Shown here: positions 24,031 to 55,156 of the stretch, one piece after another
Layout: each line of letters begins with the position of its first letter
How positions within the stretch are numbered: position 1 is the first letter of the stretch
Source of the DNA: Silicimonas sp.
GTDB taxonomy: Bacteria; Pseudomonadota; Alphaproteobacteria; Rhodobacterales; Rhodobacteraceae
Reading direction: 5' to 3'
Assembly: GCA_025800205.1 (NCBI GenBank)
Contig: JAOXSD010000174.1
Span: 9,544-73,543 of the forward strand
Length of the DNA stretch: 64,000 bases
Program-made: the position numbers and the translations under genes
The notes under the pieces: model-generated
Seen by the model: the letters and a program-made list of their open reading frames with translations, nothing else
Databases searched by the model: none
What the model was told of the DNA's origin: nothing

Positions 24031-24071
24031 TGTCCATTCATAATTACATTTGGTGTATTTCACACATTACA
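24031..24071. promoter_or_regulatory. Tandem PpsR/CrtJ-type operators in the divergent crtD / crtE promoter region
   Basis: Two perfect TGT-N12-ACA palindromes 5 nt apart: TGTccattcataattACA (24031-24048) and TGTatttcacacattACA (24054-24071). Confidence 0.8.
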
Positions 24072-26070: not shown

Positions 26071-26114
26071 TGTCTATTTTAGTTGACAGTTTGATATGTG
26101 CTAATAGACTTACA
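26071..26114. promoter_or_regulatory. Tandem PpsR/CrtJ-type operators at the bchC promoter
   Basis: TGTctattttagttgACA (26071-26088) and TGTgctaatagacttACA (26097-26114), 8 nt apart, in an unusually AT-rich stretch just after the crtF stop. Confidence 0.8.
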
Positions 26115-31879: not shown

Positions 31880-32710
31880 ATGGCATTGCTCACCTTCGAA
31901 AAGAAGTATCGGGTGCCCGGCGGCACTTTGGTCGGAGGCGATCTGTTCGACTTCTGGGTCGGGCCCTTTTTCGTCGGTTTCTTCGGTGTCACCACCATCT
32001 TTTTTGCTGGGCTGGGCACCATTCTGATCTTCTATGGGGCGGTGCTTCAGGGCACCTGGAACCCCTGGCTGATTTCCATCGATCCGCCGCCCCTTGAATA
32101 CGGGCTGGGGCCCGCGCCCCTGCGCGAGGGCGGGCTGTGGCAGATCATCACGATCTGTGCCCATGGCGCCTTCATCAGTTGGCTGCTGCGCGAGGTCGAG
32201 ATCGCCCGAAAGCTGGGCATGGGGCTGCATGTGCCCTTCGCTTTCGGCTTTGCCATCCTGGCCTATACGACTCTCGTGGTGATCCGGCCGGTCCTGATGG
32301 GCGCCTGGGGGCATGCCTTTCCCTATGGCATCTGGACCCATCTCGATTGGGTGTCGAACACCGGCTATACCTACGGCAATTTCCATTACAATCCCGCCCA
32401 TATGGTGGCGGTCACCTTCTTTTTCACCACCTGTCTGGCGCTGGCGCTCCATGGCTCGCTGATCCTGTCGGCGGCCAATCCCAACAAGGGGCTGGAGATG
32501 CGCGCGCCGGATCACGAAGACACGTTCTTCCGGGATTTCATCGGCTATTCCATCGGCCCCCTGGGCATTCACCGGCTCGGGCTTCTCTTGGCGCTGAACG
32601 CGGGGTTCTGGTCGGCGGTCTGCATCGTGATCTCGGGCACGGTCTGGTTCGGCGAATGGGTCGTGTGGTGGGATTGGTGGCTGAACCTGCCGATCTGGGC
32701 GGATCTCTGA
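31880..32710 (+). CDS. pufL: Photosynthetic reaction centre L subunit
   Basis: [36 protein letters not shown]..., 276 aa, 5 TM. Confidence 0.95.
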
Positions 32711-32723
32711 GCGGAGCGGAACA

Positions 32724-33647
32724 ATGGCGGAATATCAGAATATTTTCACACAGGTTCAGGTCCGCGGCTCGGCGGAAATGGGCATGGTCGAAGACGCCGA
32801 TCTCAAGGAACGCGGCCAGGGCGCGCGGTTCTCGAACCTGATCGGTTTCCTTGGCAATGCCCAGATCGGGCCCTTCTATCTGGGCCCCTGGGGGCTGCTG
32901 TCCCTGATGTCGGGGCTGACCTGGTTCTTCATGGTCGGGATCGCGTTCTGGGTGCAGGCCGGTTTCAGCCCGGGCGTTTTCATCCGCGATCTGTTCTGGC
33001 TTTCGCTTGACCCGCCGGGGCCGGAATACGGTCTAGGCTGGGCGCCGCTCTGGGAGGGCGGGCTCTGGCTGATCTCCTCCTTCTTCCTGCTGGTGGCGGT
33101 GATCTCCTGGTGGATCCGTTCCTGGGTGCTGGCCGAACAATTGGGCATGGGCAAGCATGTCTGCTACGCCTTCGCCTCTGCCATCTGGCTGTTCCTGGTC
33201 CTGGGCCTGATCCGCCCGGTGCTGATGGGAAGCTGGTCCGAGGCGGTGCCCTATGGCGTCTTCACCCATCTCGACTGGACCAACCTCTTTTCGCTGACCT
33301 ATGGCAACCTGTTCTACAACCCGTTCCACGCGCTTTCGATCGCCTTCCTCTATGGCTCGGCTCTGCTCTTTGCCATGCATGGCGCGACGATCCTGGCGGT
33401 GGCGCGCTTTGGCGGTGATCGGGAGCTGGAGCAGATCGCCGACCGGGGTACCGCCTCGGAACGGGCCGGGCTCTTCTGGCGCTGGACCATGGGGTTCAAC
33501 GCCACGATGGAGGGCATTCACCGCTGGGCCTGGTGGTTTGCGGTTCTGACCACGCTGACCGGCGGGATCGGCATTCTGCTGACCGGAACGGTGGTCGACA
33601 ATTGGTATGTCTGGGCCCAGGACCACGGCTATGCGCCGCCCGATTGA
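32724..33647 (+). CDS. pufM: Photosynthetic reaction centre M subunit
   Basis: [15 protein letters not shown]...[13 protein letters not shown]...HGATILAV, 307 aa. Confidence 0.95.
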
Positions 33648-33686
33648 GCCCTGCAGCAAAATGAGACGTGACGAAGGAGGCGACAG

Positions 33687-33902
33687 ATGACCGACAAGAC
33701 CGATTGGTGGCTGAAGGAAGAAAAGCCCGGCCTTTACATGTGGATCTTCACCAAGATGACATTGGGGGCTGCCTATGGCGCCCTGCTTCTGGCCGCGATC
33801 ATCTTTTTCATTCTGGCGCTGAAGGCGCTGTCGGGGCTTTTGCCCGAGGATCCCTATGCGAGCCTTGATCTGGGTCGGGCCCTGATCGCCCGGCTGGTCT
33901 GA
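33687..33902 (+). CDS. pufX: PufX, intrinsic membrane protein of the RC-LH1 core
   Basis: 71 aa, directly after pufM. One TM with a GxxxG ([18 protein letters not shown]). MxDKT start and ...ARLV end resemble Rhodobacter PufX. No pufC follows pufM. Confidence 0.7.
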
Positions 33903-38314: not shown

Positions 38315-39210
38315 GGCAACCCCCGCAAGGCGAGGGCGGACACCATCATGCCAAGGACATAAAGCGTCACGCCCACCTGATTGTACCACGGCGCAAACGC
38401 CTTCGGGTCGCGCAACAGCCGGGACATGGCGAGGATCTGCAGCGCCACCAGCCCGAGCACGATCAGCCCGTGACTCCAGGCGCCCCAGATCAGCAGCATG
38501 GGGATCACCAGACATTGGGCAAGCACCATGGTGATGCAGGCGATCTTGGCGGCGACCTCGGGGCCTTCGCGCACGGGAAGGGAGTGGATGCCGGTTGCCC
38601 GATCCCCTTCGAGAGCCTTGAAATCATTGAGAGTCATGATGCCGTGGGCGCCGAGCGCATAGAGGAGGGCCACCAGCACGATTTCGAAGCGCGGCGCGCC
38701 TGCGGACAGAACTGCTGCACCGGTGAACCAGGGCAGCGCCTCGTAGCAAAGCGCCACCAGACCGGGTCCGATCCAACCCGAGCGTTTGAGCCGCAAAGGC
38801 TCTGCCGAATAGGCCCAGGCGGCAAGGACCGCAAGGCTGGTTGCACCAGCCCCCCAGGGGCCAAGCCCGAGCCCGAGAACAAGGGCAAGGGCGCTCATTG
38901 TCAGCGCGACCCAAAGTCCCCAGCGCCCCGGCACCCGGCCCGAGGGGATCGGCCGGTCTGGCTCGTTGATCGCATCCACATGGCGGTCGCACCAATCATT
39001 GGCCGCCTGACTCATGCCGCAGACCACCGGTCCTGCCAGCAAAAGGCCCAGCACCACCAACCCCGGAGCGTCCGCAAACGAGGCCTGCACTGAAACCAGC
39101 CCGCAAAGATAGGCCCACATGGGCGGAAACCAGGTGATTGGTTTGATCAATCGCAGGAGCGCGGCGGGGTCCGGCCAATGTCGAGAATGTATGTCCCAAG
39201 TGACAGCCAT
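38311..39210 (-). CDS. bchG: Bacteriochlorophyll a synthase BchG (UbiA prenyltransferase family); start uncertain (39210, 39231 or 39246)
   Basis: LLRLIKPITWFPPMWAYLCGLVS...NDWCDRHVDAINEPDRPIPSG (UbiA Asp-rich motif). Confidence 0.88.
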   Translation of the reverse strand: MAVTWDIHSRHWPDPAALLRLIKPITWFPPMWAYLCGLVSVQASFADAPGLVVLGLLLAGPVVCGMSQAANDWCDRHVDAINEPDRPIPSGRVPGRWGLWVALTMSALALVLGLGLGPWGAGATSLAVLAAWAYSAEPLRLKRSGWIGPGLVALCYEALPWFTGAAVLSAGAPRFEIVLVALLYALGAHGIMTLNDFKALEGDRATGIHSLPVREGPEVAAKIACITMVLAQCLVIPMLLIWGAWSHGLIVLGLVALQILAMSRLLRDPKAFAPWYNQVGVTLYVLGMMVSALALRGLP

Positions 39211-39230
39211 AAAGTCAATATGACATGACA
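39188..39230. promoter_or_regulatory. PpsR/CrtJ-type operator pair at the bchG 5' end
   Basis: Perfect TGTatgtcccaagtgACA at 39188-39205. A one-mismatch copy, AGTcaatatgacatgACA, at 39213-39230, 7 nt away. This spacing resembles the crtD/E and bchC tandem sites. Confidence 0.55.
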
Positions 39231-39295: not shown

Positions 39296-39331
39296 CCGGA
39301 CCCGCGCCAATCCGGCGCGGGCCGTTTTTTC
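39296..39331 (+). terminator. Intrinsic-terminator-like hairpin between the pseudoazurin gene and bchG (T-tract on the + strand, A-tract on the gene strand)
   Basis: Stem cccgcgcc (39301-39308) / ggcgcggg (39314-39321), loop aatcc, then ccgTTTTTTcc on the + strand. On the minus strand the same hairpin is preceded by AAAAAA and followed only by tccggatctt. Confidence 0.45.
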
Positions 39332-39353: not shown

Positions 39354-39851
39354 TCAGCTCGTTTCCTCGGCCAGCATCGCATCGGCGCGGGCGAAGATAT
39401 CTTCATAGCGCTTCTTTTCCTTGCCGCGATAGCGACCGCCCTTGATGTCTTCGAAATTGTCCGAGACATCGCCCACCAACAGCAGCCCGACCATGCCGGC
39501 GGTGCGATGCGGAGTGCAGAAAAAGGCATAGGCGCCGGGCGTGTCGAGCACGACCTCCACATCCTTGCTGATCTTGCCCTTCCAGAGCGTGGCGCCCTCG
39601 GGCGCGCCCTTGGCGGCACAGGTGGAGTTGTGGCCCTTGTCGGTGGCCACAAAGCGGATCGTGTCGCCGACCTTGGCGCGCACCAGATCAGGATAGAACA
39701 CCTGACGTTCCTTGCTGTTTTCGGGATGCTTGTTCAGCATCTGGATCTCGATCACCTGCGGATCGTCGCTGGCGGACAGGGCGGCCGGCGTCAGAGTGGC
39801 GGCGGCAGCGGCGCCGAGGAACACCAGATGATCGCGTCGCGTGTGTTGCAT
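39354..39851 (-). CDS. Pseudoazurin (type-1 blue copper protein) with a twin-arginine-like signal peptide
   Basis: VIEIQMLNKHPENSKERQVFYPDLVRAKVGDTIRFVATDKGHNS...PGAYAFFCTPHRTAGMVGLLLVGD. Carries the His/Cys/His/Met copper ligand set and the C-terminal helical extension typical of pseudoazurin. N-terminus MQHTRRDHLVFLGAAAAATLTPAALSA. Confidence 0.85.
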   Translation of the reverse strand: MQHTRRDHLVFLGAAAAATLTPAALSASDDPQVIEIQMLNKHPENSKERQVFYPDLVRAKVGDTIRFVATDKGHNSTCAAKGAPEGATLWKGKISKDVEVVLDTPGAYAFFCTPHRTAGMVGLLLVGDVSDNFEDIKGGRYRGKEKKRYEDIFARADAMLAEETS

Positions 39852-39945
39852 GGTCTTCTTTCTCCCTTTTCAAAAACAACCGGGCAATCTGCCCTTTCCG
39901 GCCCATGACCTATGGCGTCCGGCGCCAAAGACAATTCACATCCCC

Positions 39946-41166
39946 TCACGCCACCATCCGCGACAGGGCGCAGTGCGACCACAGCGCGTCGAGCGCTTCG
40001 ATCAGATGGGCGATGTCGGCATCGCTGTGGAGCGGCGATGGCGTGATGCGCAGCCGCTCTTCGCCCTTCGGCACGGTGGGGTAATTGATCGGCTGCACAT
40101 AAATCCCCCATTGCTCCATCAGCATGTCACTGATCATCCGGCATTTCACCGGGTTGCCGATCATCACCGGGATGATGTGGCTGGGGTTGTCCATATGCGG
40201 GATGCCGCGGGCATCGAGGGCGGCGCGGATCGTGGCGACCCGTTCCTTTTGGCGCGCCCTCTCGATCTGGCTGGTCTTCAGATGGCGGATCGAGGCACAG
40301 GCGGCTGCCGCAATCGCCGGCGGCAGGGCGGTGGTGAAGATGAAGCCGCTGGCAAAGGAGCGGACGAAATCGCACAACGCAGCGGACCCGGTGATATAGC
40401 CGCCCATGCAGCCATAGGCCTTGCCGAGCGTGCCTTCGATCAGCGTCACCCGGTCCATCACGCCCTCGCGTTCCGCCACGCCGCCGCCGCGCGGGCCATA
40501 CATGCCCACCGCATGCACCTCATCAAGATAGGTCATGGCGCCAAAGCGCTCGGCCACGTCGCAGATCTCGGCAATGGGCGCGATATCGCCATCCATGGAA
40601 TAGACGCTTTCAAAGGCGACAATCTTCGGCCGGTCGGGATCGATCGCGGAAAGCTTGCGTGCCAGATCCTCCACGTCGTTATGGGACCAGATCACCTTTT
40701 CGGCCCGCGAATGGCGGATGCCCTCGATCATCGAAGCGTGGTTGAGCGCATCCGACAGGATCACCGCATTGGGCAGCCGCGCGCCCAGGGTCGACAGCGC
40801 GGCCCAGTTCGACACATAGCCGGAGGTGAAGAGAAGGGCCGCTTCCTTGCCGTGAAGATCGGCCAGTTCGCGTTCCAGCAGCAGGTGGTGATGGTTGGTG
40901 CCCGAGATATTGCGGGTGCCGCCCGCGCCGGTGCCGCAGGCCTCCACCGTACGGGTCATGGCCGCGATCACATCGGGGTGCTGCCCCATGCCGAGGTAAT
41001 CGTTGGAACACCAGACGGTGACGTCGCGGGTGCCGCCTTCGAAGTGATTGGTGGCGCGAGGGAAAGCGCCGCACTGGCGTTCGAGATCGGCGAAGATGCG
41101 GTAATTGCCCTCGTCGCGCAACCGCTCGAGCGCGTCGGTAAAGAGCGTGTCATATTCCATTGGCAT
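39946..41166 (-). CDS. hemA: 5-aminolevulinate synthase
   Basis: [17 protein letters not shown]...[14 protein letters not shown]...HASMIEGI...ESVYSMDGD...GTLGKA (PLP Lys). 406 aa. The start overlaps the puhE 3' end. Confidence 0.93.
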
Positions 41167-41959
41167 CCTCCTTGAAGGGCTTTGGCCGCGCCGGACGCCC
41201 GCCTGCGGGCAGCATCCAGCGCCAGAGTTTGTCGTCGGGCAGGGGCAGGATCATCAGCAGATGTTCCAGCAGCGCCAGGCCGGCGAGGGTGGCGAGCAGA
41301 ACGTGGCGCGGCGCGGCGCTTTCGGCCCCGCGCAGTGCAGCGGCCAGCATCGCCCAGAGCAACAGCGCAAGCGACAGAGGCATCAGCCAGGTCATGGGCC
41401 GGATGCGGAAATGGCTGGGCAGATGGGCGAGCGGGCGCGGCAGCAGGTCACCATGGACCCGGGGCACGCCGAAAAAAAGATTGAGTTTGGCGGAGATGCG
41501 CGCGGCGAAAAGCAATGAGAAGATCAAAAGGCCGGTGGAGTTGGCCGCCCCGTCGCTCAGGTGAAAGATCGCCAGCAGGGCAAGAACCAGCGCGGCCTCG
41601 TGGTAGGCGACGGTGCCGAAGCCGCTCCAGAACCGCGCCCAGCCGGAAAGCCCCGGCGGGCAAGGCAGCGGGGCGGGTCCGGTGATTGCTCCGGTGAGAA
41701 AGGCCAGTTCGATCCAGCCCCAGATTGCCAGGGCGCCGAAGAAGCCCAGATAGTCGCCCAGGGCACCCGGATCGGAAAGCGAAAGCGTCAGGGCCAGCGC
41801 GCCCGCACCCAGCACCGGCAGGCTCATCAGGCAAAGCATCCGCTGTGCTCCCGGCCCGCCCCGGTCGGCCAAAGCCACCGCACGCAGGATGACCCCGGTG
41901 GAGGCCCACCAGGCGGCGGCCGCCACCAGAAGCGCGACCCAGGGAGCGCCCGGGCTCAT
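41150..41959 (-). CDS. puhE: Photosynthetic complex assembly protein PuhE (DUF3623)
   Basis: 269-aa polytopic membrane protein downstream of acs[13 protein letters not shown]... Conserved PGC position acsF-puhE-hemA. Confidence 0.8.
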
Positions 41960-41996: not shown

Positions 41997-43121
41997 TCAA
42001 TAGGCCGGTTCCAACCGCACCGAGGCCGGCACCTCGTTGCGGAGCGCGGGGATTGTCAGAAGTGCGACGAAGGCCCGCCCGGCGCGCGCCGCCGCCCAGA
42101 CCGCGCGCAGACGTCCGGTGATGCCGCCTGCCTTACGGGCTGCATCAAGATCGACATTGGCGCGTCTCATCGCTTCCAGTCGCGGCTGCCATTTCGGATG
42201 ATCGATATCGAGGGTGATCGGAAAGATCTGGCGCGAGATTTCCGAGGTCTTGGCAAACACTTCCTGCCCGTACCAGGCGGGATCGACGCCGAGGGCGGCG
42301 TGAAAGGCGGGGCGCTGATGATCGCGCACCCACATGGTGGAATAGACGGCGGTGAGGAAGAACTTGATCCAGAAGACGTTCCGCCCCCGGGTCAGATGGG
42401 GGTTGGCCTTCATCAGAAGGGCGAAGGCCTCGCCGTGGCTGAACTCATCGTTGCACCATTCGCGGAACCATTTGAAAATCGGATGGAAACGATATTCGGG
42501 ATGCGCCTCAAGATGGCGGAAGATCGTGATGTAGCGCGCATAGCCGATCTTCTCGGAGAGATAGGTGGCGTAGTAGATGAACTTCGGCTTGAAGTAGGTG
42601 TATTTCTTCGCCTTGGTCAGAAAGCCCAGATTGACCGAAATGCCGGCCTCGCGCAGGGCGTCATTGATGAACCCCGCATGCCGGGCTTCATCGCGCGACA
42701 TGAATTTGAACAATTCGCAGATGTCCGGATTGGTGCCGCGCCGCTTCATTTCCTTGTAAAGCACACAGCCCGAAAATTCGGCGGTGCAGGATGAGATCAG
42801 AAAATCGATGAACTCCGCGCGCAGGCCGGGCTCCATCCCGTCCCAGTCGATCTGCTCCCAGTCTTCGGTCTTCTTGAAATGGCCCCGGTTCGGATCGGCA
42901 CGCATCTGATCGAGAAGAGCATCCCAATCGGCGCGCACGGGGTCCACATTCAGCGCATCCATTTCGTCGAAATCGGTGGTGTAGAAACGCGGGGTCAGCA
43001 GGGTGTTCTGCATCGCCACTTCGGTCGCGCTTTCACTGTCATGCACCGCCTGGGCGGCCTGGATGGCCAGACCTTCCTCGGCGGTTTCCGCATCAGCGCT
43101 GTGTTTGGCATGCATGTTCAT
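41997..43121 (-). CDS. acsF: Aerobic Mg-protoporphyrin IX monomethyl ester oxidative cyclase AcsF
   Basis: Di-iron ExxH motifs: CTAEFSGCVLYKE, SRDEARHAGF and NDEFSHGEAF. ATG at 43121 after a ggagg SD, forming an ATGA overlap with orf98. Confidence 0.92.
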   Translation of the reverse strand: MNMHAKHSADAETAEEGLAIQAAQAVHDSESATEVAMQNTLLTPRFYTTDFDEMDALNVDPVRADWDALLDQMRADPNRGHFKKTEDWEQIDWDGMEPGLRAEFIDFLISSCTAEFSGCVLYKEMKRRGTNPDICELFKFMSRDEARHAGFINDALREAGISVNLGFLTKAKKYTYFKPKFIYYATYLSEKIGYARYITIFRHLEAHPEYRFHPIFKWFREWCNDEFSHGEAFALLMKANPHLTRGRNVFWIKFFLTAVYSTMWVRDHQRPAFHAALGVDPAWYGQEVFAKTSEISRQIFPITLDIDHPKWQPRLEAMRRANVDLDAARKAGGITGRLRAVWAAARAGRAFVALLTIPALRNEVPASVRLEPAY

Positions 43122-43414
43122 GGGGTGACCTCCTCGGAAAAGGAAAATTCGCAAAGTTCCATGTATTCCAGATTGCCGGTGAGCCGGGTCCAGAGGGATT
43201 CAAGCCGCGACGCCCGGGTGATGGTCGCCATCCGCGCCTCGCGGATCACCGCGCCGAACGGCGCGAGGACGGGCGGGCCATGGACCAGCACTTCGTCGCC
43301 CGGATGGATCACCGCACCATTGTCGAGCCGCACATGGGCGCTCAATTCCTCGAACCGGTGGCTGATTTCGACCGTGCAGGGTGCGGTTTCGGTGCTGCGG
43401 GTAAATAGACCCAT
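43118..43414 (-). CDS. Conserved-position hypothetical protein (98 aa) between puhC and acsF
   Basis: Intact ORF MGLFTRSTETAPCTVEISHRFEELSAHVRLDNGAVIHPGDEVLVHGPP... The start is 1 nt from the puhC stop, and its stop overlaps the acsF ATG. No TM segment or recognisable motif. Confidence 0.6.
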   Translation of the reverse strand: MGLFTRSTETAPCTVEISHRFEELSAHVRLDNGAVIHPGDEVLVHGPPVLAPFGAVIREARMATITRASRLESLWTRLTGNLEYMELCEFSFSEEVTP

Positions 43415-43415
43415 T

Positions 43416-43895
43416 CTAGCCTCCTTTGGGTTGCGTGATCAGGGCGCGCCAGCGGGCTGCGCCTTCGTCTCCGAACATGGTCAGCTCGATCGCCCAGCCA
43501 GTGGCGGGATCGGCAAGCTGCAGCCGGTCGTTGGCATACTGGCGCAGCAGCACCGGCGGGTTGTCCGTCACCCCGTGGCGGCGGCGTTCAAAGGCGAGCC
43601 CGGAGCGCACGACGGTGAGAAATCCGCCGGACTCCGTTTCCAGAAGCATGCGGCCCTCCGGACTGCGCACGGTAATCTGCGCGCCGTCGCCTGCAAGCAC
43701 CAGGGCACGTTCGCTCATCAGGGCGGCCACTTTCGGCTGACCCAGCTTGGGACGCTCGGTGAGCACCGCGAAACTGACCAGGCCAAGGGTGAAGATCACC
43801 AGGGCAGCCATGGCCTGCAAAAGCCGAACCGGGATCAGCTCGCGGCTTTCGCGCCGTGCGGCATGGCGGGTTTCGGCGTCGACGATCAGTCTCAT
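43416..43895 (-). CDS. puhC: Photosynthetic complex assembly protein PuhC
   Basis: MRLIVDAETRHAARRESRELIPVRLLQAMAALVIFTLGLVSFAVL..., one TM plus a periplasmic domain, 159 aa. ATGA overlap with the puhB stop. The 343-aa track ORF is an extension across puhB. Confidence 0.8.
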   Translation of the reverse strand: MRLIVDAETRHAARRESRELIPVRLLQAMAALVIFTLGLVSFAVLTERPKLGQPKVAALMSERALVLAGDGAQITVRSPEGRMLLETESGGFLTVVRSGLAFERRRHGVTDNPPVLLRQYANDRLQLADPATGWAIELTMFGDEGAARWRALITQPKGG

Positions 43896-44521
43896 GCGGG
43901 CACCTCCTGTCGCTGCGGCGCGACCGAGACCTGTGGCTGGTGCAGCCGGGTTTCCGCCGCTTCTGCCAACAGGCGCGCCACAACCTCGGCCTCGGGAATG
44001 CAGCGCAGCGCCGGTTGCGGCTGGCGGAAATGCCAGGGTCGCAGATGGGGCCAGAGCATGGCGCGCGAGATCCGCGTCTCGGTCACCGGCGTCAGCGCAA
44101 TCGTGCCGCTGCCGTCGCGCCGGGTGATCAGATTGGCCGCGGCCAGACGTGCAAAGGGCAGGTTGAGCGTCAGGTTGAGCGCCGCGCCGATCCGCATCAC
44201 CACCCGGGCGCTGGTGATCGTGTAAAGCGTCGCGCGGGCTTGCAGCCAGGCCAGACCAAGCACCAGGCCGCAGGCCAGCGCCCCCAGCAAAAGGGGCGGC
44301 ACCCCGGTGCCAAGCGCCTCGGCAAGGGGCCGGTCCGTCGCACTGACAGCGATACGCCAGAGGGCCAGCACCAGAAAATAACCGCAGATCCAGCCCAGCC
44401 CCATGGCTTCGATCGCCAGCCGCCAAAGGCGAGGTCGCCCCTGCCACAGGATCACCTCGCCCGCGGGCAGGGTCTCGGCCAGGCCCGGCACCGGTTCGGT
44501 GTGGAAATCAGGATGCGCCAT
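43892..44521 (-). CDS. puhB: Photosynthetic complex assembly protein PuhB
   Basis: 209 aa. EPVPGLAETLPAGEVILWQGRPRLWRLAIEAMGL..., TM segments. Position directly after puhA. Confidence 0.8.
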   Translation of the reverse strand: MAHPDFHTEPVPGLAETLPAGEVILWQGRPRLWRLAIEAMGLGWICGYFLVLALWRIAVSATDRPLAEALGTGVPPLLLGALACGLVLGLAWLQARATLYTITSARVVMRIGAALNLTLNLPFARLAAANLITRRDGSGTIALTPVTETRISRAMLWPHLRPWHFRQPQPALRCIPEAEVVARLLAEAAETRLHQPQVSVAPQRQEVPA

Positions 44522-44545
44522 GGTGCTGTCCCCCGTGTTGCCAGC

Positions 44546-45292
44546 TCAGGAATAAAGCGTGCCGCCGGCGTACCAGGCGGAGATCTTTTCCTCGTCGAGG
44601 AGCGTCAGCTGCCCCGCATGTCCCGGCTGCGGCACGCCGTCAAAGCGCGTGGAATGGAGCGAGGCGACCTGTACCCATTTCGGCTTGATCCGCGCCATCG
44701 GCATCGGCACCAGCCGCGTGCCGCGGCCGTGTTCGGGCTCCAGCGTCACCTCCAGATAACGGATCAGCGCCTCGGGCTTGTCGACCCAGAGATCGGTCAC
44801 ATGGCCGATCACCTGATCATCCTTCGACAGCACCGGCAGCCCCATGGGATCGCGCCCGGCAGAGACGCGGAATTCCGGTGCGCTGGTCATCGGCACGATC
44901 TTGATCTGTCCGTGGCCGTCAAGCTCCGGCACATCCCGGCGCGGCGCCCAGGACGCGGGGCCGACCCCATCCGCCATCGGATCGCCGGTGGGCAGGAACG
45001 GATAGCCATTGGCGCCATTGCTGCGGGCCAGCGCCAGATCGTCCCGGTCGCCGCGCGCGCCCGACGGAACCGTCAGGCTGCCGCGCCCGTCGCGCAACAG
45101 GAAGGTCTTGTCCTTGGGCAGCGGAAAGGGCCCCTGGTTCGCGGCCGGGTTGCCCTCCTCGTCCTCGAGAGGGAAGCCCTCGCGCATGTTCTCGGTCTGC
45201 AGGTAGAAGATCAGCCCGGCGAAAAAGATCCAGAAGGCCCAGATCGCCGCGCTGGCCAGGTCAAAGTTTCCGAAAAATTCCACACCAACCAT
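44546..45292 (-). CDS. puhA: Photosynthetic reaction centre H subunit
   Basis: MVGVEFFGNFDLASAAIWAFWIFFAGLIFYLQTENMREGFPLE..., with a PRC-barrel C-terminal domain. 248 aa. Confidence 0.93.
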   Translation of the reverse strand: MVGVEFFGNFDLASAAIWAFWIFFAGLIFYLQTENMREGFPLEDEEGNPAANQGPFPLPKDKTFLLRDGRGSLTVPSGARGDRDDLALARSNGANGYPFLPTGDPMADGVGPASWAPRRDVPELDGHGQIKIVPMTSAPEFRVSAGRDPMGLPVLSKDDQVIGHVTDLWVDKPEALIRYLEVTLEPEHGRGTRLVPMPMARIKPKWVQVASLHSTRFDGVPQPGHAGQLTLLDEEKISAWYAGGTLYS

Positions 45293-45307
45293 TTTGATGT
45301 CCTCCGA

Positions 45308-46746
45308 TCAGCTGGGAAACTCGGCCAGGCCGAGTTTTTGGGTCTGCCCGCCGGGCTTGGTCCGAGGCATTTCGGACCGGCGCACCAACGGTGCAAGCAG
45401 AATGAGTGTAAGGAAAAGAAATGCTATTTCCGTATGATAGACAAAGGCGTAGCCAATGCTCGGGGTGTCGAGTGCAGCACCCAGCAGGCCTGCCTCGGCG
45501 ATCCGGGTGACCAGATCCTTCAGGGCGCCGCCCAACAGGATCGCCAGGCCGGCCGCGCCGGCCTGCGCCGCCCCCCAGGCACCAAGTGCGAGGCCTTGGC
45601 CGGCACGTGCGCCGGTGGGCAGGTTCATCGCCGAGATCAGCAGTGCCACGGCAAAAAGCCCGCCGCCCAGGCCGATGGCAGCGGTGCCCGCAAAGAACAG
45701 AAGCGGGGCCTGCATGGGCGCCGAGAGCACCAGCGCGGAAAAGGCGCCGGTGCCGATCAGGATGCCGCGCGCGGCCAGCCGCACCGGATCCTGCCCCCGC
45801 CCCAGCCCATGGGCGGAAAGGGCAAAACCTGCCAGCGCCCCCAGCGCCCAAAGCGCGGTCAACCGGGTGGTGCTGGCCACCGAAAGGCCGAGGATCTCGC
45901 CACCATAGGGCTCAAGCAGAATGTCCTGCATGTTGAACGCCAGCGTGCCGACAAAGACCGCGGCCAGCAGTCGGCCCGCCGTGCCGCCGCCGGTGTAATC
46001 CGCCCAGGCGTCGCGGAACCGGGGCCGGGCTGCGTTGCGCGCGGTCTGCGATTGGGGCTGCAGGGGTTCCTGTTTCCACAGTGCCAGCAGGTTCAGGAGC
46101 AGGGTCGCAAGTGCTGCGCCCTGAACCACGCGGATCAATTGCAATTGCGAGAAATCCCGCAACAGGTTGCCGATGATCAGGGCCGAGACACCCATGCCAA
46201 GCAGGAACATAACGTAAAGAAGCGCCACCACCCGGGGCCGGGTCTCCACCGGCGCGCGATCGGCCGCAAGGGCGAGCCCCGCGGTCTGGGTCATGTGCAG
46301 GCCTAGGCCGGTTGCGATGAAGGCGATGGCGGCCAGCATTTCGCCGGCCCAGGCCGGGCCGAGGGTCTGGTCGCCCCCCAGCACGATCAGCGCAAAGGGC
46401 ATCACCGCAAGGCCGCCCATCTGCCAGAGCGAGCCGAACCACAGATAGGGCACACGTTTCCAGCCCAAGGCGCTGCGATAGGCATCGGAGCGAAACCCGA
46501 GAAGTGGGCGCAGGGGGGCAACCAGCACCGGCAGGCCCAGCATGATCGCCACGATCACCACCGGCACCGAAAGTTCAACGATCATCACCCGGTTGAGCGT
46601 GCCCAGAAGCATCACCATCGCCATGCCGACCGAGACCTGAAACAGCGACAGGCGCAGAAGCTGGCCCAGCGGCAGCGCTTCGGATGCAGCATCCGAGAAG
46701 GGCAGCAGGCCGCGCCCGAGGGACTTGATCTGCGCCCGGGTCACGA

Positions 46747-46750
<4 letters not shown>
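45308..46750 (-). CDS. lhaA: LH1 assembly MFS protein LhaA (PucC family)
   Basis: 480 aa, polytopic. LRLSLFQVSVGMAMVMLLGTLNRVMIVEL. Between bchM and puhA. ATGA overlap with the bchM stop. Confidence 0.88.
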
Positions 46751-48347
<1,597 letters not shown>

Positions 48348-51300
48348 TCACTCGGCCGCGATCCCCTCCAGCCGATCCTCGATTTCCTCCGCCGCGCCCT
48401 GCAGGGCGGCGAGCGTTTCCGCATCCGGTTGCCAATAGGACCGGTCATGCGCCTCAAGCAGGCGGTTGGTCATGCGCATGCTCGCTTCCGGGTTGAGACG
48501 GGCCAGCCGCTGGCGCATTGCCTCATCCAGCACGAAGGTTTCCGAAATCCGCTGGTAGACCCAGGGATCAACCTGACCGGTGGTGGCCGACCAGCCCAGG
48601 GTGTTGGTCACATGGGCCTCGATATGGCGCACGCCCTCGCGGCCATGTTCCAGAAGACCTTCGTAGAATTTCGGGTTGAGACTGCGTGACCGGGTTTCCA
48701 GGGCGATCTGATCCTTCAGCTTGCGGATCTTGCCGTCGCCCCGGGTCTGATCCGAGATATAGACCGCCGCCTCATCGCCCCGGGCGCGCCGGATTGCCCG
48801 GCTGACCCCGCCCAGCGTGTCGAAGTAGTGATCCACCGTGGTCACGCCCAGTTCGACGCTTTCGAGATTCTGATAGGCCAGTTCCACATCGGCCAGGGTA
48901 TGGGCGAGCAGATCCGCCTGATGGGCAGGCTTGCCATCGCGCCCGTAGGCGAAGCTCTTGCGCGCCTCGAAGGCGTCCGCCAGTTCATCTTCATCGGCAA
49001 AGCTGGACGCATCGACCAGCAGGTTCACATTGGAGCCATAGGCGCCTTCGGCATTGGAAAAGACCCTCAGCGCCGCCGTTTCCAGATCGCAGCCGGTCTT
49101 TTCGGCATAGGCGCGGGCATGGGCGCGGATGAAATTCATCTCCTCAGGCTCATCCGCGCTGGCGGCGCGCCAGGCGGCTTCGGCCAGCAGGCGGATCTGC
49201 AGGGGCAGGAGATCGCGGAAGATGCCGGAGACGGTCATCACCACATCGATGCGCGGCCGTCCCAGAGTTTCGAGCGGGATCAATTCGGCCCCGCACAACC
49301 GCCCATAGCGGTCGAACCGGGGGGCGGCGCCAATCAGCGCCAGCGCCTGGGCGATCGGGCTGCCGTCGGACTTGATATTGTCGGATCCCCAAAGCACCAG
49401 CGCGATGGCGCGCGGCAGACTTGCGTGGGTTGCCAGCAGCCGTTCGGCCTGCGCCCGTCCTTCGGCAAGCGCAAAGGCGGTCGGCATGCGGAAGGGATCG
49501 AAAGCGTGAATATTGCGCCCGGTGGGCAGGATATGGGGCGCCCGGATCAGGTCGCCGCCGGGCACCGGGGGCACGAAATGACCACCAAGCGCGCGCATCA
49601 AGGCGGGCAGTTCGTCATTCTCGGCCAGCTGCCGGTCCATGGCGGCGCGCGCATCTGCGTCAAGATCGCTCATCACATCGAGCAGGGCCGCGCGTTTTTC
49701 CGATGTCATCCGCCGGCCCACCACATGGAGCCCGTCGGGGATCAGCGCCGCCTCGGTTTCCAGCAGTTTGAGCCAGAGATCACCAGGCGCGATGCCGCCC
49801 AGATCCACCGCCTCGGCCTGATCCGCGATCAAGGCTTCAAGGTCCTGGCGCGCGCGTCCAGGCTCTGCTTTGCGCCAGCGCGCCAATGTGTCCTTGAGCT
49901 CTGCCAGTCCTTTATATAGCCCGGCCTGAGCCGTGGGCGGGGTCAGATGCGACACGGTGATCGCATTGGCGCGCCGCTTGGCGAGGCTCGCTTCAGAGGG
50001 GTTGTTGGCCGCATAAAGATAGATGTTCGGCAGGGCGCCGATCAGCCGGTCGGGCCAGCAACTCCCCGACAGCCCCACCTGTTTGCCGGGCATGAATTCC
50101 AGCGCCCCGTGCATACCAAAATGCAAAAGCACATCCGCCTCGAAACTCTCGCGCAGCCAGCGATAAAAGGCGGCAAAGGCATGGGTCGGCGCAAAGCCCT
50201 TCTCGAAGAGAAGCCGCATCGGGTCGCCCTCATAGCCGAAGACCGGCTGGACGCCGACAAAGACCGATCCGAAGTGCCGTCCCAGCACGAAGACATGGCG
50301 CCCGTCGGTCTGGTGGCGGCCCGGCGCGGGCCCCCATTGCGCCTCGATCTCCGCCAGCCAGGGGGTGTCGGCCACCAGATGATCGGCAGGAATTTTCGCC
50401 GCCACATGGGCCGGTTGGCCGTGATCCTCGGCGTTGCCGCCCAGCAGTGCCTCCCGAAGCGCCGCCGCGTCCTCGGGCAGATCCACCTTGTAGCCTTCGC
50501 GCTTCATGCGCTGCAAGAGATTGAAAAGGCTTTCAAACACATCCAGATGGGCGGCCGTTCCCACGGCGCCTGCATTGGGTGGAAACCCGTAAAGCACGAT
50601 GGCCGCCTTGCGGTTCTCGGGGCGCGAGCGTCGCAGACGGGCCAGCCGGTCGGTCTTTTCAACCAACGTCGCGACCCGTTCATCGATCGGATAAAGGGCG
50701 CGGTCCTCTGCCCCGCTGCGCCGTCCGGCAAAGACCGTCGGATTGGTGGCGCCGTCGATTTCTGGCAGGGCGATCAGCATGGTGGTTTCCACCGGGCCCA
50801 GCCCGGCTTGCGCCTCCGACCAGGCCTCGGCACTCTGGAATTCGAGCGGATGAGCCGCGAGGTAGGGCACATCAAGCCCTTGCAACAGTTCGACCGCAGC
50901 CCCGCTGTCATTATAGGCTGGCCCACCCACCAACGAGAATCCGGTGAGCGAGACAAGCGCGTCAATCCGGCCGTTGAAATAGCGCTCCACCGCCGGGCGC
51001 GCATCAAGCCCGCCGGCAAAGGCGGGCAGCACCCGCAGACCGCGCGCCTCCAGCCCCCGGATCACCGCGTCATAATGGGCGCAATCATCGGCCAGCACAT
51101 AGGAGCGCAAAAGCAACAGCCCCACGGTCGCGCGCGCGCCTTTGCCATCGGCCAACGCGCCTGCATCTTCCGTGATCCGCCCGGGCAGATCGGGATGATA
51201 GAGCCCCACTTCGGGATATTCGATGGGCAGCGCGGCATCTGCGCCCTGCCAATCCTTCCGGCACCCATAGCGTGAGACCAGATAGCGGATCATCTGCTCC

Positions 51301-51840
51301 ACATTGTCGTCGGAGCCGCCCAGCCAATATTGCATGCACAGAAACCAGGCGCGCAAATCCTGCGCCTTGCCCGGCAGAAACCGCAGGATCTTCGGAATGC
51401 GGCGCAGCATTTTCATCTTTGAACGCGCCGGATCGCTGGTGGATTTGATCCCGCCGCGCAGCTTTTTCAGAAAGCCCAGAACACCAGAGCTCGGATGCGC
51501 CATATCCAGATCGCCGAGCCGGGTCAGCCGGACAATCGCATCCTCCGAAATCACTCCCACCATTGCATCGCAGGCCTCTCGGCGCGCCTCAAGCGCGGGC
51601 AGGATCGCGCGGATATGTTCGTCCAGAAACAAAAGCACCGTGAGGATGATATCGGCCCGGGCCACATCTGCCTTGGCCGCCTCAAGCGATGCGGGGCATT
51701 CGGCCCATTCCGCACTGGCATGCACCACCATTTCGAGCCCGGGGAAATCCCGCGCCAAACGGCGCGAAGCCCGGTCCACCGGCCCCGCCGCATGGGCGTC
51801 GAGCGTGAGGATCACCACACGGTAGGGCGATATGGCGGAC

Positions 51841-51851
<11 letters not shown>
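48348..51851 (-). CDS. bchH: Mg-chelatase large subunit BchH
   Basis: About 1167 aa, CobN/BchH family. The ATG at 51851 ([24 protein letters not shown]) overlaps the bchB 3' end by 11 nt. The track start at 51983 is an extension into bchB. Confidence 0.93.

Positions 51852-55156
<3,305 letters not shown>

What the first reader, a model, noticed from the sequence alone, without database searches (positions are those of the whole stretch)
39354..39851. A pseudoazurin is embedded in the photosynthesis superoperon, where I recall cycA lying in R. sphaeroides
A textbook pseudoazurin lies between hemA and bchG, co-directional with the 19-kb bchF...puhA...acsF-puhE-hemA...bchG-bchP gene string. It has the copper ligands His (KGHN) and Cys-x2-His-x4-Met (CTPHRTAGM) and the C-terminal helical tail. 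From memory, in R. sphaeroides the gene beyond the acsF-puhE end of the cluster is cycA, encoding cytochrome c2, the periplasmic donor to the reaction centre. No soluble cytochrome gene and no pufC are present in this window. A blue copper protein re-reduces the reaction centre in Chloroflexus (auracyanin), but I do not know this to be established for purple bacteria. A cluster-encoded pseudoazurin is thus a candidate alternative or oxygen-adapted electron carrier between bc1 and the reaction centre. Its signal peptide carries an RR pair (TRRDHLVFLG), which is unusual because pseudoazurins are normally Sec substrates exported without cofactor.
Basis: partly seen in the sequence, partly recalled or inferred. 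Interest (0 to 1): 0.6.

Follow-up and report, generated by a model that had tools for sequence, protein, structure and literature searches.

The report
Copper protein in cytochrome c2's slot
A secreted blue-copper protein gene sits exactly where related photosynthesis gene clusters carry the cytochrome c2 gene, and this bacterium has no soluble cytochrome c2, so copper probably replaces haem iron in returning electrons to the light-driven reaction centre.

Summary
ORF 39354-39851 (-) encodes a 165-aa pseudoazurin-fold protein with all four type-1 copper ligands. It is the last gene of the bchFNBHLM-lhaA-puhABC-acsF-puhE-hemA string.

It is not quite a textbook pseudoazurin. It belongs to a distinct subfamily with an invariant N-terminal [S/T]RR motif, a 3-residue loop insertion and a longer C-terminal helix.

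In 30 of 34 sampled Rhodobacterales clusters without this gene, a cytochrome c2 gene starts just after hemA (puhE in one). In 5 of 5 sampled clusters with the cupredoxin, it starts at that same offset. About 40 species-level genomes, mostly marine metagenome-assembled, share the arrangement, roughly 3% of sampled phototrophic Rhodobacterales. Eighteen of those 40, including this window's closest relatives, have no recognisable soluble c2.

This genome (94% complete) also gave no hit for PufC, HiPIP, NirK, NirS or NosZ. It does have bc1.

Best reading (about 0.6): a copper substitute for cytochrome c2, carrying electrons from bc1 to the reaction centre and probably to the oxidases. Main rival: a membrane-anchored cytochrome c, present in every c2-less genome tested, re-reduces the reaction centre instead.

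No experiment exists. The literature holds one passing mention. This scan found the same arrangement before on other DNA (e1-3938376, e1-4126321).

The parts
39354..39851 (-). Pseudoazurin-subfamily cupredoxin gene (165 aa precursor)
   Evidence: ORF. Pfam Copper-bind E 6.9e-13. TIGR02375 108.8 bits against a cut-off of 109.85. 3TU6 E 3.9e-31. AF2 model with Foldseek TM 0.91-0.93 to pseudoazurins.
39768..39851 (-). Signal peptide region (residues 1-28) with the T4-R5-R6 twin-arginine motif. Likely cleavage after A-L-S-A27.
   Evidence: R5 and R6 are invariant in alignment A2. RR is present in 68 of 68 relatives with a called start. pLDDT is below 55 over residues 1-30. Pfam TAT_signal does not fire, so Tat export is inferred from the motif only. 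The cleavage site is my reading of the sequence.
39492..39632 (-). Type-1 copper ligand codons: H74 (39630-39632), C112 (39516-39518), H115 (39507-39509), M120 (39492-39494)
   Evidence: Codons read. The four columns are invariant across the subfamily and classical pseudoazurins.
39852..39945 (-). 94-nt hemA-cupredoxin spacer. It holds a weak hairpin plus T-run (39894-39882) and a GGGAGA ribosome-binding site.
   Evidence: Spacers in 41 related clusters are on the same strand, with a median of 145 nt.
39299..39326 (-). Strong G+C hairpin just after the cupredoxin stop codon. Likely 3' end of the transcription unit.
   Evidence: 8 of 8 GC stem at 39301-39321. The 114-nt region folds at -51.1 kcal/mol, z -3.2. 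The T-run lies on the plus-strand side, so termination of the minus-strand transcript is inferred.
39188..39230 (.). PpsR-type operator pair (TGT-N12-ACA, plus a one-mismatch copy) at the start of bchG. It marks a separate promoter downstream of the cupredoxin.
Evidence: Perfect site at 39188-39205. The second copy was read.
39946..41166 (-). hemA (5-aminolevulinate synthase), the gene immediately upstream
   Evidence: TIGR01821 E 5.7e-203.
41150..41959 (-). puhE
   Evidence: TIGR03055 E 3.3e-62. PF12291.
41997..43154 (-). acsF (aerobic Mg-protoporphyrin monomethyl ester cyclase)
   Evidence: TIGR02029 E 7e-155.
43892..55144 (-). bchF-N-B-H-L-M, lhaA, puhA and puhB: the upstream part of the same-strand gene string
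   Evidence: NCBIfam hits for each gene except lhaA. The lhaA assignment is by position and by the PUCC family hit on its counterparts in L001 and L002. PpsR-type sites at 55066 and 55139 lie at the head of the string.
31880..33902 (+). pufL, pufM and a PufX-like single-helix ORF (33687-33902), followed by dxs. There is no pufC, so the reaction centre lacks a tetrahaem subunit and would be the proposed direct partner.
   Evidence: Photo_RC hits. ORFs. dxs TIGR00204. No PF02276 hit in the genome, and the same model scored positives in 14 of 40 other genomes.

Best explanation
The gene encodes a periplasmic type-1 copper electron carrier of the pseudoazurin fold. It has taken over the place, and most likely the job, of cytochrome c2 in this bacterium's photosynthesis gene cluster.

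Shown:
- An intact cupredoxin gene with all four copper ligands.
- A signal peptide with a conserved twin-arginine motif.
- A position as the last gene of the bchF...puhA...acsF-puhE-hemA string, at the exact offset where other Rhodobacterales clusters carry cycA.
- No hit for soluble c2, HiPIP, PufC, NirK, NirS or NosZ in this 94%-complete genome.
- bc1 is present.

Inferred:
- The precursor is exported, probably by the Tat pathway.
- It binds one copper through H74, C112, H115 and M120.
- It accepts an electron from cytochrome c1 of the bc1 complex and diffuses in the periplasm.
- It docks directly on the periplasmic face of the PufC-less PufLM reaction centre and re-reduces the photo-oxidised special pair, which closes cyclic electron flow.
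- Like c2, it probably also feeds the cbb3 and aa3 oxidases.
- Because it ends the puh-acsF-hemA transcription unit, it would be made together with the reaction centre.
- Using copper instead of haem may spare iron in marine surface water. This last point is speculation.
For: 1. Family. Ligands, fold and sequence family are established.

2. Slot identity.
- Brinkmann 2018 lists acsF-puhE-hemA-cycA as canonical.
- In 30 of 34 sampled clusters without the cupredoxin, c2 fills the slot. In 29 it starts 1292-1554 nt after puhE's end, just after hemA. In one cluster without hemA it follows puhE directly.
- In 5 of 5 sampled clusters with the cupredoxin, it starts 1337-1432 nt after puhE. c2 is displaced downstream in 2 of these and not found within about 6 kb in 3.

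3. Recurrence. Of 80 loci found with the subfamily profile, 34 show acsF-puhE-hemA-cupredoxin. Six more have hemA upstream, 4 of them on truncated contigs. Ten of these 40 also keep a c2 gene within 2 kb.

4. Loss of the haem carrier.
- 18 of the 40 genomes have no c2-type hit better than about E 1e-15.
- These include the window's nearest relatives (G040, G042, G043, G047, G049-G052) and three genomes at least 99% complete.
- The window's own genome has none and no HiPIP.

5. Classical partners not found. There is no hit for NirK, NirS or NosZ.

6. Evolutionary direction.
- Rooted on classical pseudoazurins, copies in a lipB-cupredoxin-cycA context branch first. All 8 of those genomes lack reaction-centre genes.
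- The cluster-linked copies fill a derived group.
- So a cupredoxin/c2 pair predates recruitment to the cluster.

7. Precedents.
- Auracyanin and cytochrome c551 are alternative carriers to the Roseiflexus reaction centre (PMC10873879).
- From my own knowledge: pseudoazurin and cytochrome c550 are interchangeable donors in Paracoccus, and plastocyanin and cytochrome c6 in cyanobacteria.
Against: - No functional data exist.
- Every one of the 18 c2-less genomes tested carries an orthologue (49-72% identity) of this genome's membrane-anchored cytochrome c (C35). In Rhodobacter capsulatus a protein of that kind can feed the reaction centre without c2 (the R. capsulatus point is from my own knowledge).
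- 22 of the 40 cluster-cupredoxin genomes still have c2, so it is not a strict replacement.
- A close orthologue (66% identity) persists in a genome with no reaction-centre genes (L023). A derived clade sits next to PQQ genes and a PQQ sugar dehydrogenase. So the family is not tied to photosynthesis alone.
- A weak terminator-like hairpin lies between hemA and the gene.
- Net charge varies from -20 to +3 among cluster-linked copies, which gives no clear docking signature.
- The genome is a 94%-complete MAG, so absences are not certain. Related genomes are not independent samples.
Confidence: 0.6

Rival explanations
1. The cupredoxin is a general respiratory carrier from bc1 to the cbb3 and aa3 oxidases. 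It sits in the cluster only because it was once paired with cycA. The reaction centre is re-reduced by the membrane-anchored cytochrome c (C35 in this genome) or another cytochrome.
For: - An anchored c2-like cytochrome is present in this genome and in all 18 c2-less cluster-cupredoxin genomes tested.
- The basal context, lipB-cupredoxin-cycA, occurs only in non-phototrophs.
- An orthologue is retained in a genome without reaction-centre genes.
- ccoP is present.
Against: - The gene is kept at the exact cycA offset, on the same strand behind hemA, in about 40 genomes.
- Phototrophs have repeatedly lost the soluble haem carrier while keeping the cupredoxin.
- Anchored cytochromes of this kind are near-universal in the order, and in R. 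sphaeroides the anchored form does not support photosynthesis (my own knowledge). Presence alone therefore says little.
Confidence: 0.25
2. It is the electron acceptor of a periplasmic dehydrogenase, for example the PQQ-dependent sugar dehydrogenase, and is unrelated to the photosynthetic chain.
For: - A monophyletic clade of 19 rows (support 100/99), 18 of them PQQ-linked and nested among the cluster-linked ones, lies in pqqCDE-cupredoxin-sugar dehydrogenase arrays.
- This genome has an orthologue of that dehydrogenase on C162.
Against: - In this genome the dehydrogenase gene is preceded by its own small cytochrome c, not by a cupredoxin, and lies on another contig.
- The PQQ clade is derived. 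Three genomes carry both a PQQ-linked and a cluster-linked copy, so these are paralogues with separate roles.
Confidence: 0.06
3. It has the classical pseudoazurin role, as donor to nitrite reductase or nitrous oxide reductase during denitrification.
For: Family resemblance to pseudoazurins of denitrifiers.
Against: - No NirK, NirS or NosZ was found in the 94%-complete genome.
- The subfamily is set apart from classical pseudoazurins by tree, signal peptide, insertion and tail.
Confidence: 0.03
4. It is a hitch-hiking or decaying insertion with no current function.
For: In an even sample only about 3% of phototrophic Rhodobacterales have it in the cluster.
Against: - The reading frame is intact.
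- Ligands and 30 columns are invariant across relatives at 47-75% identity.
- It has a good ribosome-binding site.
- Synteny is conserved across many genera.
Confidence: 0.03

Closest known systems
Cytochrome c2 (CycA) of Rhodobacteraceae photosynthesis gene clusters (Rhodobacter, Dinoroseobacter)
   Same: - Same genomic slot, directly after (acsF-)puhE-hemA on the same strand.
- Small secreted single-electron carrier.
- Expected partners are bc1, the reaction centre and the oxidases.
   Different: - Unrelated fold and cofactor: a copper beta-sandwich rather than a haem c protein.
- Twin-arginine rather than Sec-type signal.
- Function at the reaction centre is not demonstrated.
Classical pseudoazurins (TIGR02375; PDB 3TU6, 1BQK, 1PAZ, 1ADW)
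   Same: - Fold, the four copper ligands with C-x2-H-x4-M spacing, and two C-terminal helices.
- 46-50% identity to 3TU6 over the mature part.
   Different: - Scores just under the equivalog cut-off.
- Invariant [S/T]RR signal rather than a Sec-type signal.
- 3-residue insertion in the first loop (HPExxKE) and a longer last helix.
- Forms a separate clade.
- No nitrite or nitrous oxide reductase was found in the genome.
Pseudoazurin and cytochrome c550 as alternative donors in Paracoccus denitrificans (my own knowledge: Pearson et al. 2003)
   Same: - Same order of bacteria.
- A pseudoazurin and a c2-type cytochrome serve the same acceptors. Here the two genes are even adjacent in many genomes.
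   Different: - There the acceptor is cytochrome cd1 nitrite reductase, not a photosynthetic reaction centre.
- The Paracoccus protein is of the classical, Sec-type kind.
Auracyanin of Chloroflexus and Roseiflexus
   Same: A cupredoxin that carries electrons to a type-II reaction centre. In Roseiflexus it works beside an alternative cytochrome c551 (PMC10873879).
   Different: - Different cupredoxin family, and membrane-tethered.
- The donor complex is alternative complex III, not bc1.
- The reaction centre there has a tetrahaem subunit. The one here has none.
Plastocyanin and cytochrome c6 switch of cyanobacteria and algae (my own knowledge)
   Same: Copper and haem carriers are interchangeable between the cytochrome complex and a photosystem. 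The choice is linked to metal supply.
   Different: - Oxygenic photosystem I, not a purple-bacterial reaction centre.
- No metal-dependent regulation has been shown here.

Membership tests
Pseudoazurin (cupredoxin; NCBIfam TIGR02375) | Type-1 copper ligands His, Cys, His, Met with C-x2-H-x4-M spacing | tested here: met
   H74, C112, H115 and M120 are invariant in alignment A1, which includes classical members.
Pseudoazurin (cupredoxin; NCBIfam TIGR02375) | Cupredoxin beta-sandwich followed by two C-terminal helices | tested here: met
   AF2 model pLDDT 88.1 with helices 133-137 and 143-164. Foldseek TM 0.91-0.93 and rmsd 1.1-1.5 A to solved pseudoazurins.
Pseudoazurin (cupredoxin; NCBIfam TIGR02375) | Score above the curated equivalog cut-off | tested here: not met
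   108.8 bits against a cut-off of 109.85, so narrowly below. The Pfam Copper-bind cut-off is passed.
Pseudoazurin (cupredoxin; NCBIfam TIGR02375) | Genomic association with copper or cd1 nitrite reductase, or other denitrification enzymes | tested here: not met
   No hit for TIGR02376, PF02239 or TIGR04244 in the 93.9%-complete genome.
Tat (twin-arginine) exported proteins | N-terminal S/T-R-R-x-F-L-K motif before a hydrophobic stretch | tested here: inconclusive
   The window has T-R-R-D-H-L-V. RR is invariant in 68 of 68 relatives and [S/T]RR in 66, and both are absent from classical pseudoazurins. Pfam TAT_signal gives no hit at E up to 10, and no Tat model appeared in NCBIfam.
Tat (twin-arginine) exported proteins | Export depends on TatABC | not testable with these tools
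   Needs an RR-to-KK variant or a tat mutant.
Soluble donors to purple-bacterial reaction centres (functional class of cytochrome c2) | Gene carried in the photosynthesis gene cluster at the puhE-hemA end, co-directional | tested here: met
   Window, 40 related loci, and the same offset as cycA in 30 of 34 other clusters. Published order in PMC6052148.
Soluble donors to purple-bacterial reaction centres (functional class of cytochrome c2) | No other soluble donor available (c2, HiPIP) | tested here: met
   No soluble c2 and no HiPIP. An anchored cytochrome c and a small class-I cytochrome c do exist. The genome is 93.9% complete.
Soluble donors to purple-bacterial reaction centres (functional class of cytochrome c2) | Midpoint potential between cytochrome c1 and the special pair, and fast reduction of the photo-oxidised special pair | not testable with these tools
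   Needs the purified protein, with flash spectroscopy and redox titration.
Soluble donors to purple-bacterial reaction centres (functional class of cytochrome c2) | Co-expression with puf and puh genes | not tested
Only indirect signs exist: same strand, a 94-nt spacer, a hairpin after the gene, and a PpsR operator starting the next unit.

The most novel reading that the evidence does not exclude
In a set of marine aerobic phototrophic Rhodobacterales, a Tat-exported pseudoazurin is the sole soluble carrier between bc1 and a purple-bacterial (type-II, PufC-less) reaction centre, having replaced cytochrome c2 outright. This would be the first copper donor known for a proteobacterial reaction centre. 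It may be an iron-sparing adaptation of ocean phototrophs.
Probability: 0.45. Interest if true: 0.75.

Novelty: new variant of a known kind. Interest (0 to 1): 0.62.

Why it matters
Textbook donors to purple-bacterial reaction centres are all iron proteins: cytochromes c2, c8 and cy, and HiPIP. A reviewed list of carriers to the tetrahaem subunit names c2, HiPIP and auracyanin only (PMC10214105).

A copper carrier encoded in the cluster itself, in lineages that have lost c2, would add a new class of donor. It would parallel the plastocyanin/c6 and auracyanin/c551 pairs. It would also link light harvesting by abundant marine aerobic phototrophs, including relatives of Planktomarina, to copper rather than iron supply.

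It is directly testable, because cultured carriers exist: Kangsaoukella pontilimi, Roseovarius tibetensis, Roseovarius ramblicola and Rhodovulum sp. 12E13. A Rhodobacter sphaeroides cycA mutant also gives a ready complementation host.

The conserved twin-arginine signal on a single-domain cupredoxin is a second point of interest, for how the copper gets in.

Tried and rejected
- Plasmid collection: a tblastn search found only classical pseudoazurins, at most 50% identity and about 75% coverage. It gave no plasmid-borne cluster with this subfamily.
- Literature: six searches pairing pseudoazurin or other copper-protein terms with photosynthesis-cluster and Roseobacter-group terms. They gave only one passing mention, a pseudoazurin gene inserted in the cluster of Erythrobacter sp. 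JL475 (PMC4919336). I could not check whether that gene belongs to this subfamily.
- Pfam TAT_signal on five N-termini: no hit. Tat export therefore rests on the motif alone.
- Net charge and pI of mature proteins by context class: no consistent signature. The window's protein is neutral.
- Sigma-70 promoter scan around the gene: nothing found. Operon structure remains inferred.
- The look-up of sequencing runs: closed, so no expression evidence.
- Denitrification role: rejected, because the partner enzymes were not found.
- Partner role for AcsF or HemA: considered and rejected. Those enzymes act on the cytoplasmic side, while the cupredoxin has an export signal (inference).
All cluster-linked copies fall in one 65-row group that also holds the PQQ clade.
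Full report
THE GENE

ORF 39354..39851 on the minus strand encodes 165 residues and starts at ATG, 5-10 nt behind a GGGAGA ribosome-binding site. It matches Pfam Copper-bind at E 6.9e-13. On NCBIfam's pseudoazurin equivalog TIGR02375 it scores 108.8 bits, just under the 109.85 cut-off.

All four columns are invariant in an alignment of 33 relatives that includes classical pseudoazurins.

By sequence, the best solved relative is the Sinorhizobium meliloti pseudoazurin 3TU6, E 3.9e-31. An AlphaFold2 model built on 26 subfamily sequences has mean pLDDT 88.1. It shows a disordered N-terminus (residues 1-30), a beta-sandwich, and helices at 133-137 and 143-164. Its Foldseek matches are all pseudoazurins at TM 0.91-0.93 and rmsd 1.1-1.5 A, with plastocyanins far behind. 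The fold assignment is secure.

A DISTINCT SUBFAMILY

A search of 5.8 billion proteins returned about 105 full-length relatives of 160-180 aa at 45-73% identity. Nearly all come from marine Rhodobacterales or unclassified Pseudomonadota MAGs. They are separated by a gap in score and coverage from classical pseudoazurins of 143-147 aa, which score about E 1e-25 with 75% coverage.

The alignment shows three features that classical members lack:
- an N-terminal [S/T]-R-R motif, with R5 and R6 invariant
- a three-residue insertion in the first loop (HPExxKE)
- a longer C-terminal helix

Among 80 genomic loci, 68 of the 68 copies with a called start have RR within the first 15 residues, and 66 have [S/T]RR. 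Classical members start with a plain Sec-type signal. Pfam's TAT_signal model does not fire on these N-termini. Tat export is therefore a motif-based inference, which I put at about 0.7.

CONTEXT IN THE WINDOW

All of the following genes lie on the minus strand with short or overlapping junctions:
- bchF (54623-55144), bchN, bchB, bchH, bchL, bchM
- lhaA, puhA, puhB
- acsF (41997-43154), puhE (41150-41959), hemA (39946-41166)
- the cupredoxin

Signals around the gene:
- PpsR-type TGT-N12-ACA sites lie at the head of this string, at 55066 and 55139.
- A 94-nt spacer separates hemA from the cupredoxin. It holds a weak 5-bp hairpin followed by a T-run.
- Just after the cupredoxin stop there is a strong all-GC hairpin at 39301-39321. 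The region folds at -51.1 kcal/mol, z -3.2.

The simplest reading is that the cupredoxin ends the puh-acsF-hemA unit and that bchG starts a new one.

The puf operon is also in the window: pufL and pufM at 31880-33647 on the plus strand. It is followed by a 71-aa single-helix ORF in the position of pufX, and then by dxs. There is no pufC. The CytoC_RC model finds nothing in the genome. That model does work, since it hit 14 of 40 related genomes. The reaction centre therefore lacks a tetrahaem subunit, as in Rhodobacter, and a soluble donor would dock directly on PufL/PufM.

THE SLOT IS THE cycA SLOT

Brinkmann et al. 2018 list the canonical Rhodobacteraceae cluster as ...acsF (Dshi_3544), puhE (3545), hemA (3546), cycA cytochrome c2 (3547). 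The paper does not contain the words copper or azurin (PMC6052148).

I tested this directly. In an even sample of 400 Rhodobacterales genomes, 161 have puhE. I fetched 5-6 kb downstream of puhE from 38 of them, plus the cupredoxin neighbourhood on a different contig in one more phototroph. Results:
- Of 34 clusters without the cupredoxin, 30 have a c2-type gene in the slot. In 29 it starts 1292-1554 nt after the end of puhE, just after hemA. One cluster lacks hemA and has c2 directly after puhE.
- In all 5 clusters with the cupredoxin, the cupredoxin starts 1337-1432 nt after puhE.
- In those 5, c2 follows it in 2 and is not found within about 6 kb in 3.

HOW WIDESPREAD

A profile scan of one genome per prokaryotic species found 316 relatives, of which the best 80 loci were kept. 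Their contexts:
- 34 show acsF-puhE-hemA-cupredoxin.
- 6 more have hemA upstream. Four of these are on contigs cut just beyond hemA.
- 10 of these 40 also have a soluble c2 gene within 2 kb of the cupredoxin.
- 19 lie in pqqCDE-cupredoxin-PQQ sugar dehydrogenase arrays.
- 8 lie in lipB-cupredoxin-(c2) arrays.
- 5 are in Hyphomicrobiales.
- The remaining 8 are single cases or lie on short contigs.

Named carriers include Planktomarina MAGs (the window's nearest relatives, 73-75% identity), Roseovarius tibetensis, Roseovarius ramblicola, Kangsaoukella pontilimi, Rhodovulum sp. 12E13 and the complete genome MIT070201.

In the even, high-quality sample the subfamily is uncommon, present in 20 of 400 genomes at E <= 1e-28. 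It is cluster-linked in 5 of 161 phototrophs, about 3%. It is a minority variant, found mostly in uncultured marine lineages.

EVOLUTION

On a maximum-likelihood tree of 88 sequences:
- Classical pseudoazurins form the outgroup, with support 100/99.
- Next comes a paralogue clade that includes a second copy in this genome (C115).
- Then come lipB-linked copies and a Hyphomicrobiales clade.
- Last is a 65-row group holding all 40 cluster-linked copies. Nested within it, as sister to the Roseovarius cluster-linked copies, is a clade of 19 rows (support 100/99), 18 of them PQQ-linked.

Reaction-centre genes are found in 0 of 8 lipB-type genomes, 0 of 5 Hyphomicrobiales genomes and 18 of 19 PQQ-type genomes. 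Three genomes carry both a PQQ-linked and a cluster-linked copy.

The most economical story is as follows. A cupredoxin/c2 gene pair served respiration in non-phototrophs. The cupredoxin was then recruited next to cycA in the cluster, and in some lineages c2 was later lost. The tree does not tell whether recruitment happened once or several times.

IS c2 REALLY GONE?

With three c2 queries taken from neighbouring loci, the window's genome gives only weak hits, E 1e-8 to 1e-15. These fall on a membrane-anchored cytochrome c (C35:29091-29657), an anchored two-domain cytochrome (C103) and a WD40-cytochrome fusion (C297). HiPIP was not found. bc1 is present and so is ccoP.

Across the 40 cluster-cupredoxin genomes, 22 have a c2-type hit at E <= 1e-20 and 18 do not. 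The 18 include the window's whole neighbourhood on the tree (G040, G042, G043, G047, G049-G052). They also include three genomes rated at least 99% complete (G052=G336, G063=G248, G075=G149).

Loss is concentrated in lineages without PufC: 15 of 26 PufC-less genomes lack c2, against 3 of 14 PufC-bearing genomes. MAG incompleteness alone cannot explain eight related genomes all lacking the gene.

WHAT IT IS NOT

NirK, NirS and NosZ were not found, so the classical denitrification role has no partner here. The PQQ dehydrogenase orthologue in this genome lies on another contig and is preceded by its own small cytochrome c.

BEST EXPLANATION AND ITS LIMITS

I conclude, at about 0.6, that this is a periplasmic copper carrier doing the work of cytochrome c2. 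It would pass electrons from bc1 to the PufC-less reaction centre and probably to the oxidases, and be made with the reaction centre as the last gene of the puh-acsF-hemA unit.

Every functional step is inferred. The main rival, at about 0.25, is that the membrane-anchored cytochrome c re-reduces the reaction centre and the cupredoxin serves respiration only. An orthologue of that cytochrome is present in all 18 c2-less genomes tested.

Further cautions:
- 22 of 40 carriers keep c2.
- A 66%-identical orthologue survives, with its downstream neighbours, in a genome with no reaction-centre genes (L023).
- Net charge gives no docking signature.

These fit a carrier with several partners, as c2 itself is. 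They rule out a strictly photosynthesis-specific protein.

COMPARISON WITH WHAT IS KNOWN

- Slot and likely role match CycA. Fold and cofactor match pseudoazurin.
- The nearest functional precedent in the same order is the interchangeable pseudoazurin and cytochrome c550 of Paracoccus (my own knowledge).
- The nearest photosynthetic precedents are auracyanin beside cytochrome c551 in Roseiflexus (PMC10873879) and plastocyanin/c6.
- A review of RC-LH1 complexes names c2, HiPIP and auracyanin as carriers to the tetrahaem subunit (PMC10214105).
- No paper found assigns a cupredoxin to a proteobacterial reaction centre. The only related text is a one-line note of a pseudoazurin gene inserted in the cluster of Erythrobacter sp. 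JL475 (PMC4919336).

I class this as a new variant of a known kind. This scan has met the same arrangement on other DNA. Notes e1-4126321 and e1-3938376 describe it, and the follow-up to the latter reached the same 'pseudoazurin in the cytochrome c2 slot' reading. My analysis was done independently on this window and agrees.

Noticed in passing
window 33687-33902 (+): A 71-aa ORF with one hydrophobic helix lies between pufM and dxs, the position of pufX in Rhodobacter. It suggests a PufX-type RC-LH1 core in this organism.
   Followed up: partly
own genome C115:15836-16348 (-), locus L004 1384-1881: A second pseudoazurin paralogue (43% identity) with an RRR signal and a 'VKGDGM' insertion. It belongs to a separate clade with P0100 and P0102. 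It lies next to an enolase-superfamily-like gene, and its role is unknown.
   Followed up: partly
loci L018-L027, L031, L035, L036, L059, L068, L078, L082, L097, L124 (for example L022 10512-11264, minus strand): A conserved 230-250 aa protein with a signal peptide and a C-terminal membrane helix, and no Pfam family. It is encoded convergently right after the cupredoxin in 19 of the 80 profile-scan loci, plus L124 from the order sample. It is absent from this window and from its genome (tblastn, E 1e-4).
   Followed up: partly
loci L029-L077 (PQQ type); own genome C162:21485-23348: A derived cupredoxin clade sits in pqqC-D-E-cupredoxin-PQQ sugar dehydrogenase arrays, almost only in phototrophs (18 of 19). 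In this genome the orthologous dehydrogenase is instead preceded by a small cytochrome c. This is a second apparent copper/haem carrier swap.
   Followed up: partly
loci L028, L037, L047, L063, L064, L084, L085, L088: A lipB-cupredoxin array, with a cytochrome c2-like gene following in 7 of the 8, in Rhodobacterales that lack reaction-centre genes. This is the basal context of the subfamily.
   Followed up: partly
locus L023 6700-13000: A 66%-identical orthologue, together with the unknown convergent gene and the downstream FAA-hydrolase gene (as in L021). Upstream there are P450 and flavin monooxygenase genes instead of the photosynthesis cluster, in a genome with no reaction-centre genes. 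This looks like retention after loss of the cluster.
   Followed up: partly
own genome C297:1047-2369 (+): A WD40-repeat protein fused to a C-terminal c2-like cytochrome c domain.
   Followed up: no
window 24031-24071, 26071-26114, 55066-55156: Pairs of perfect TGT-N12-ACA (PpsR-type) sites. The whole window holds 12 perfect sites against 4.35 expected by chance.
   Followed up: no
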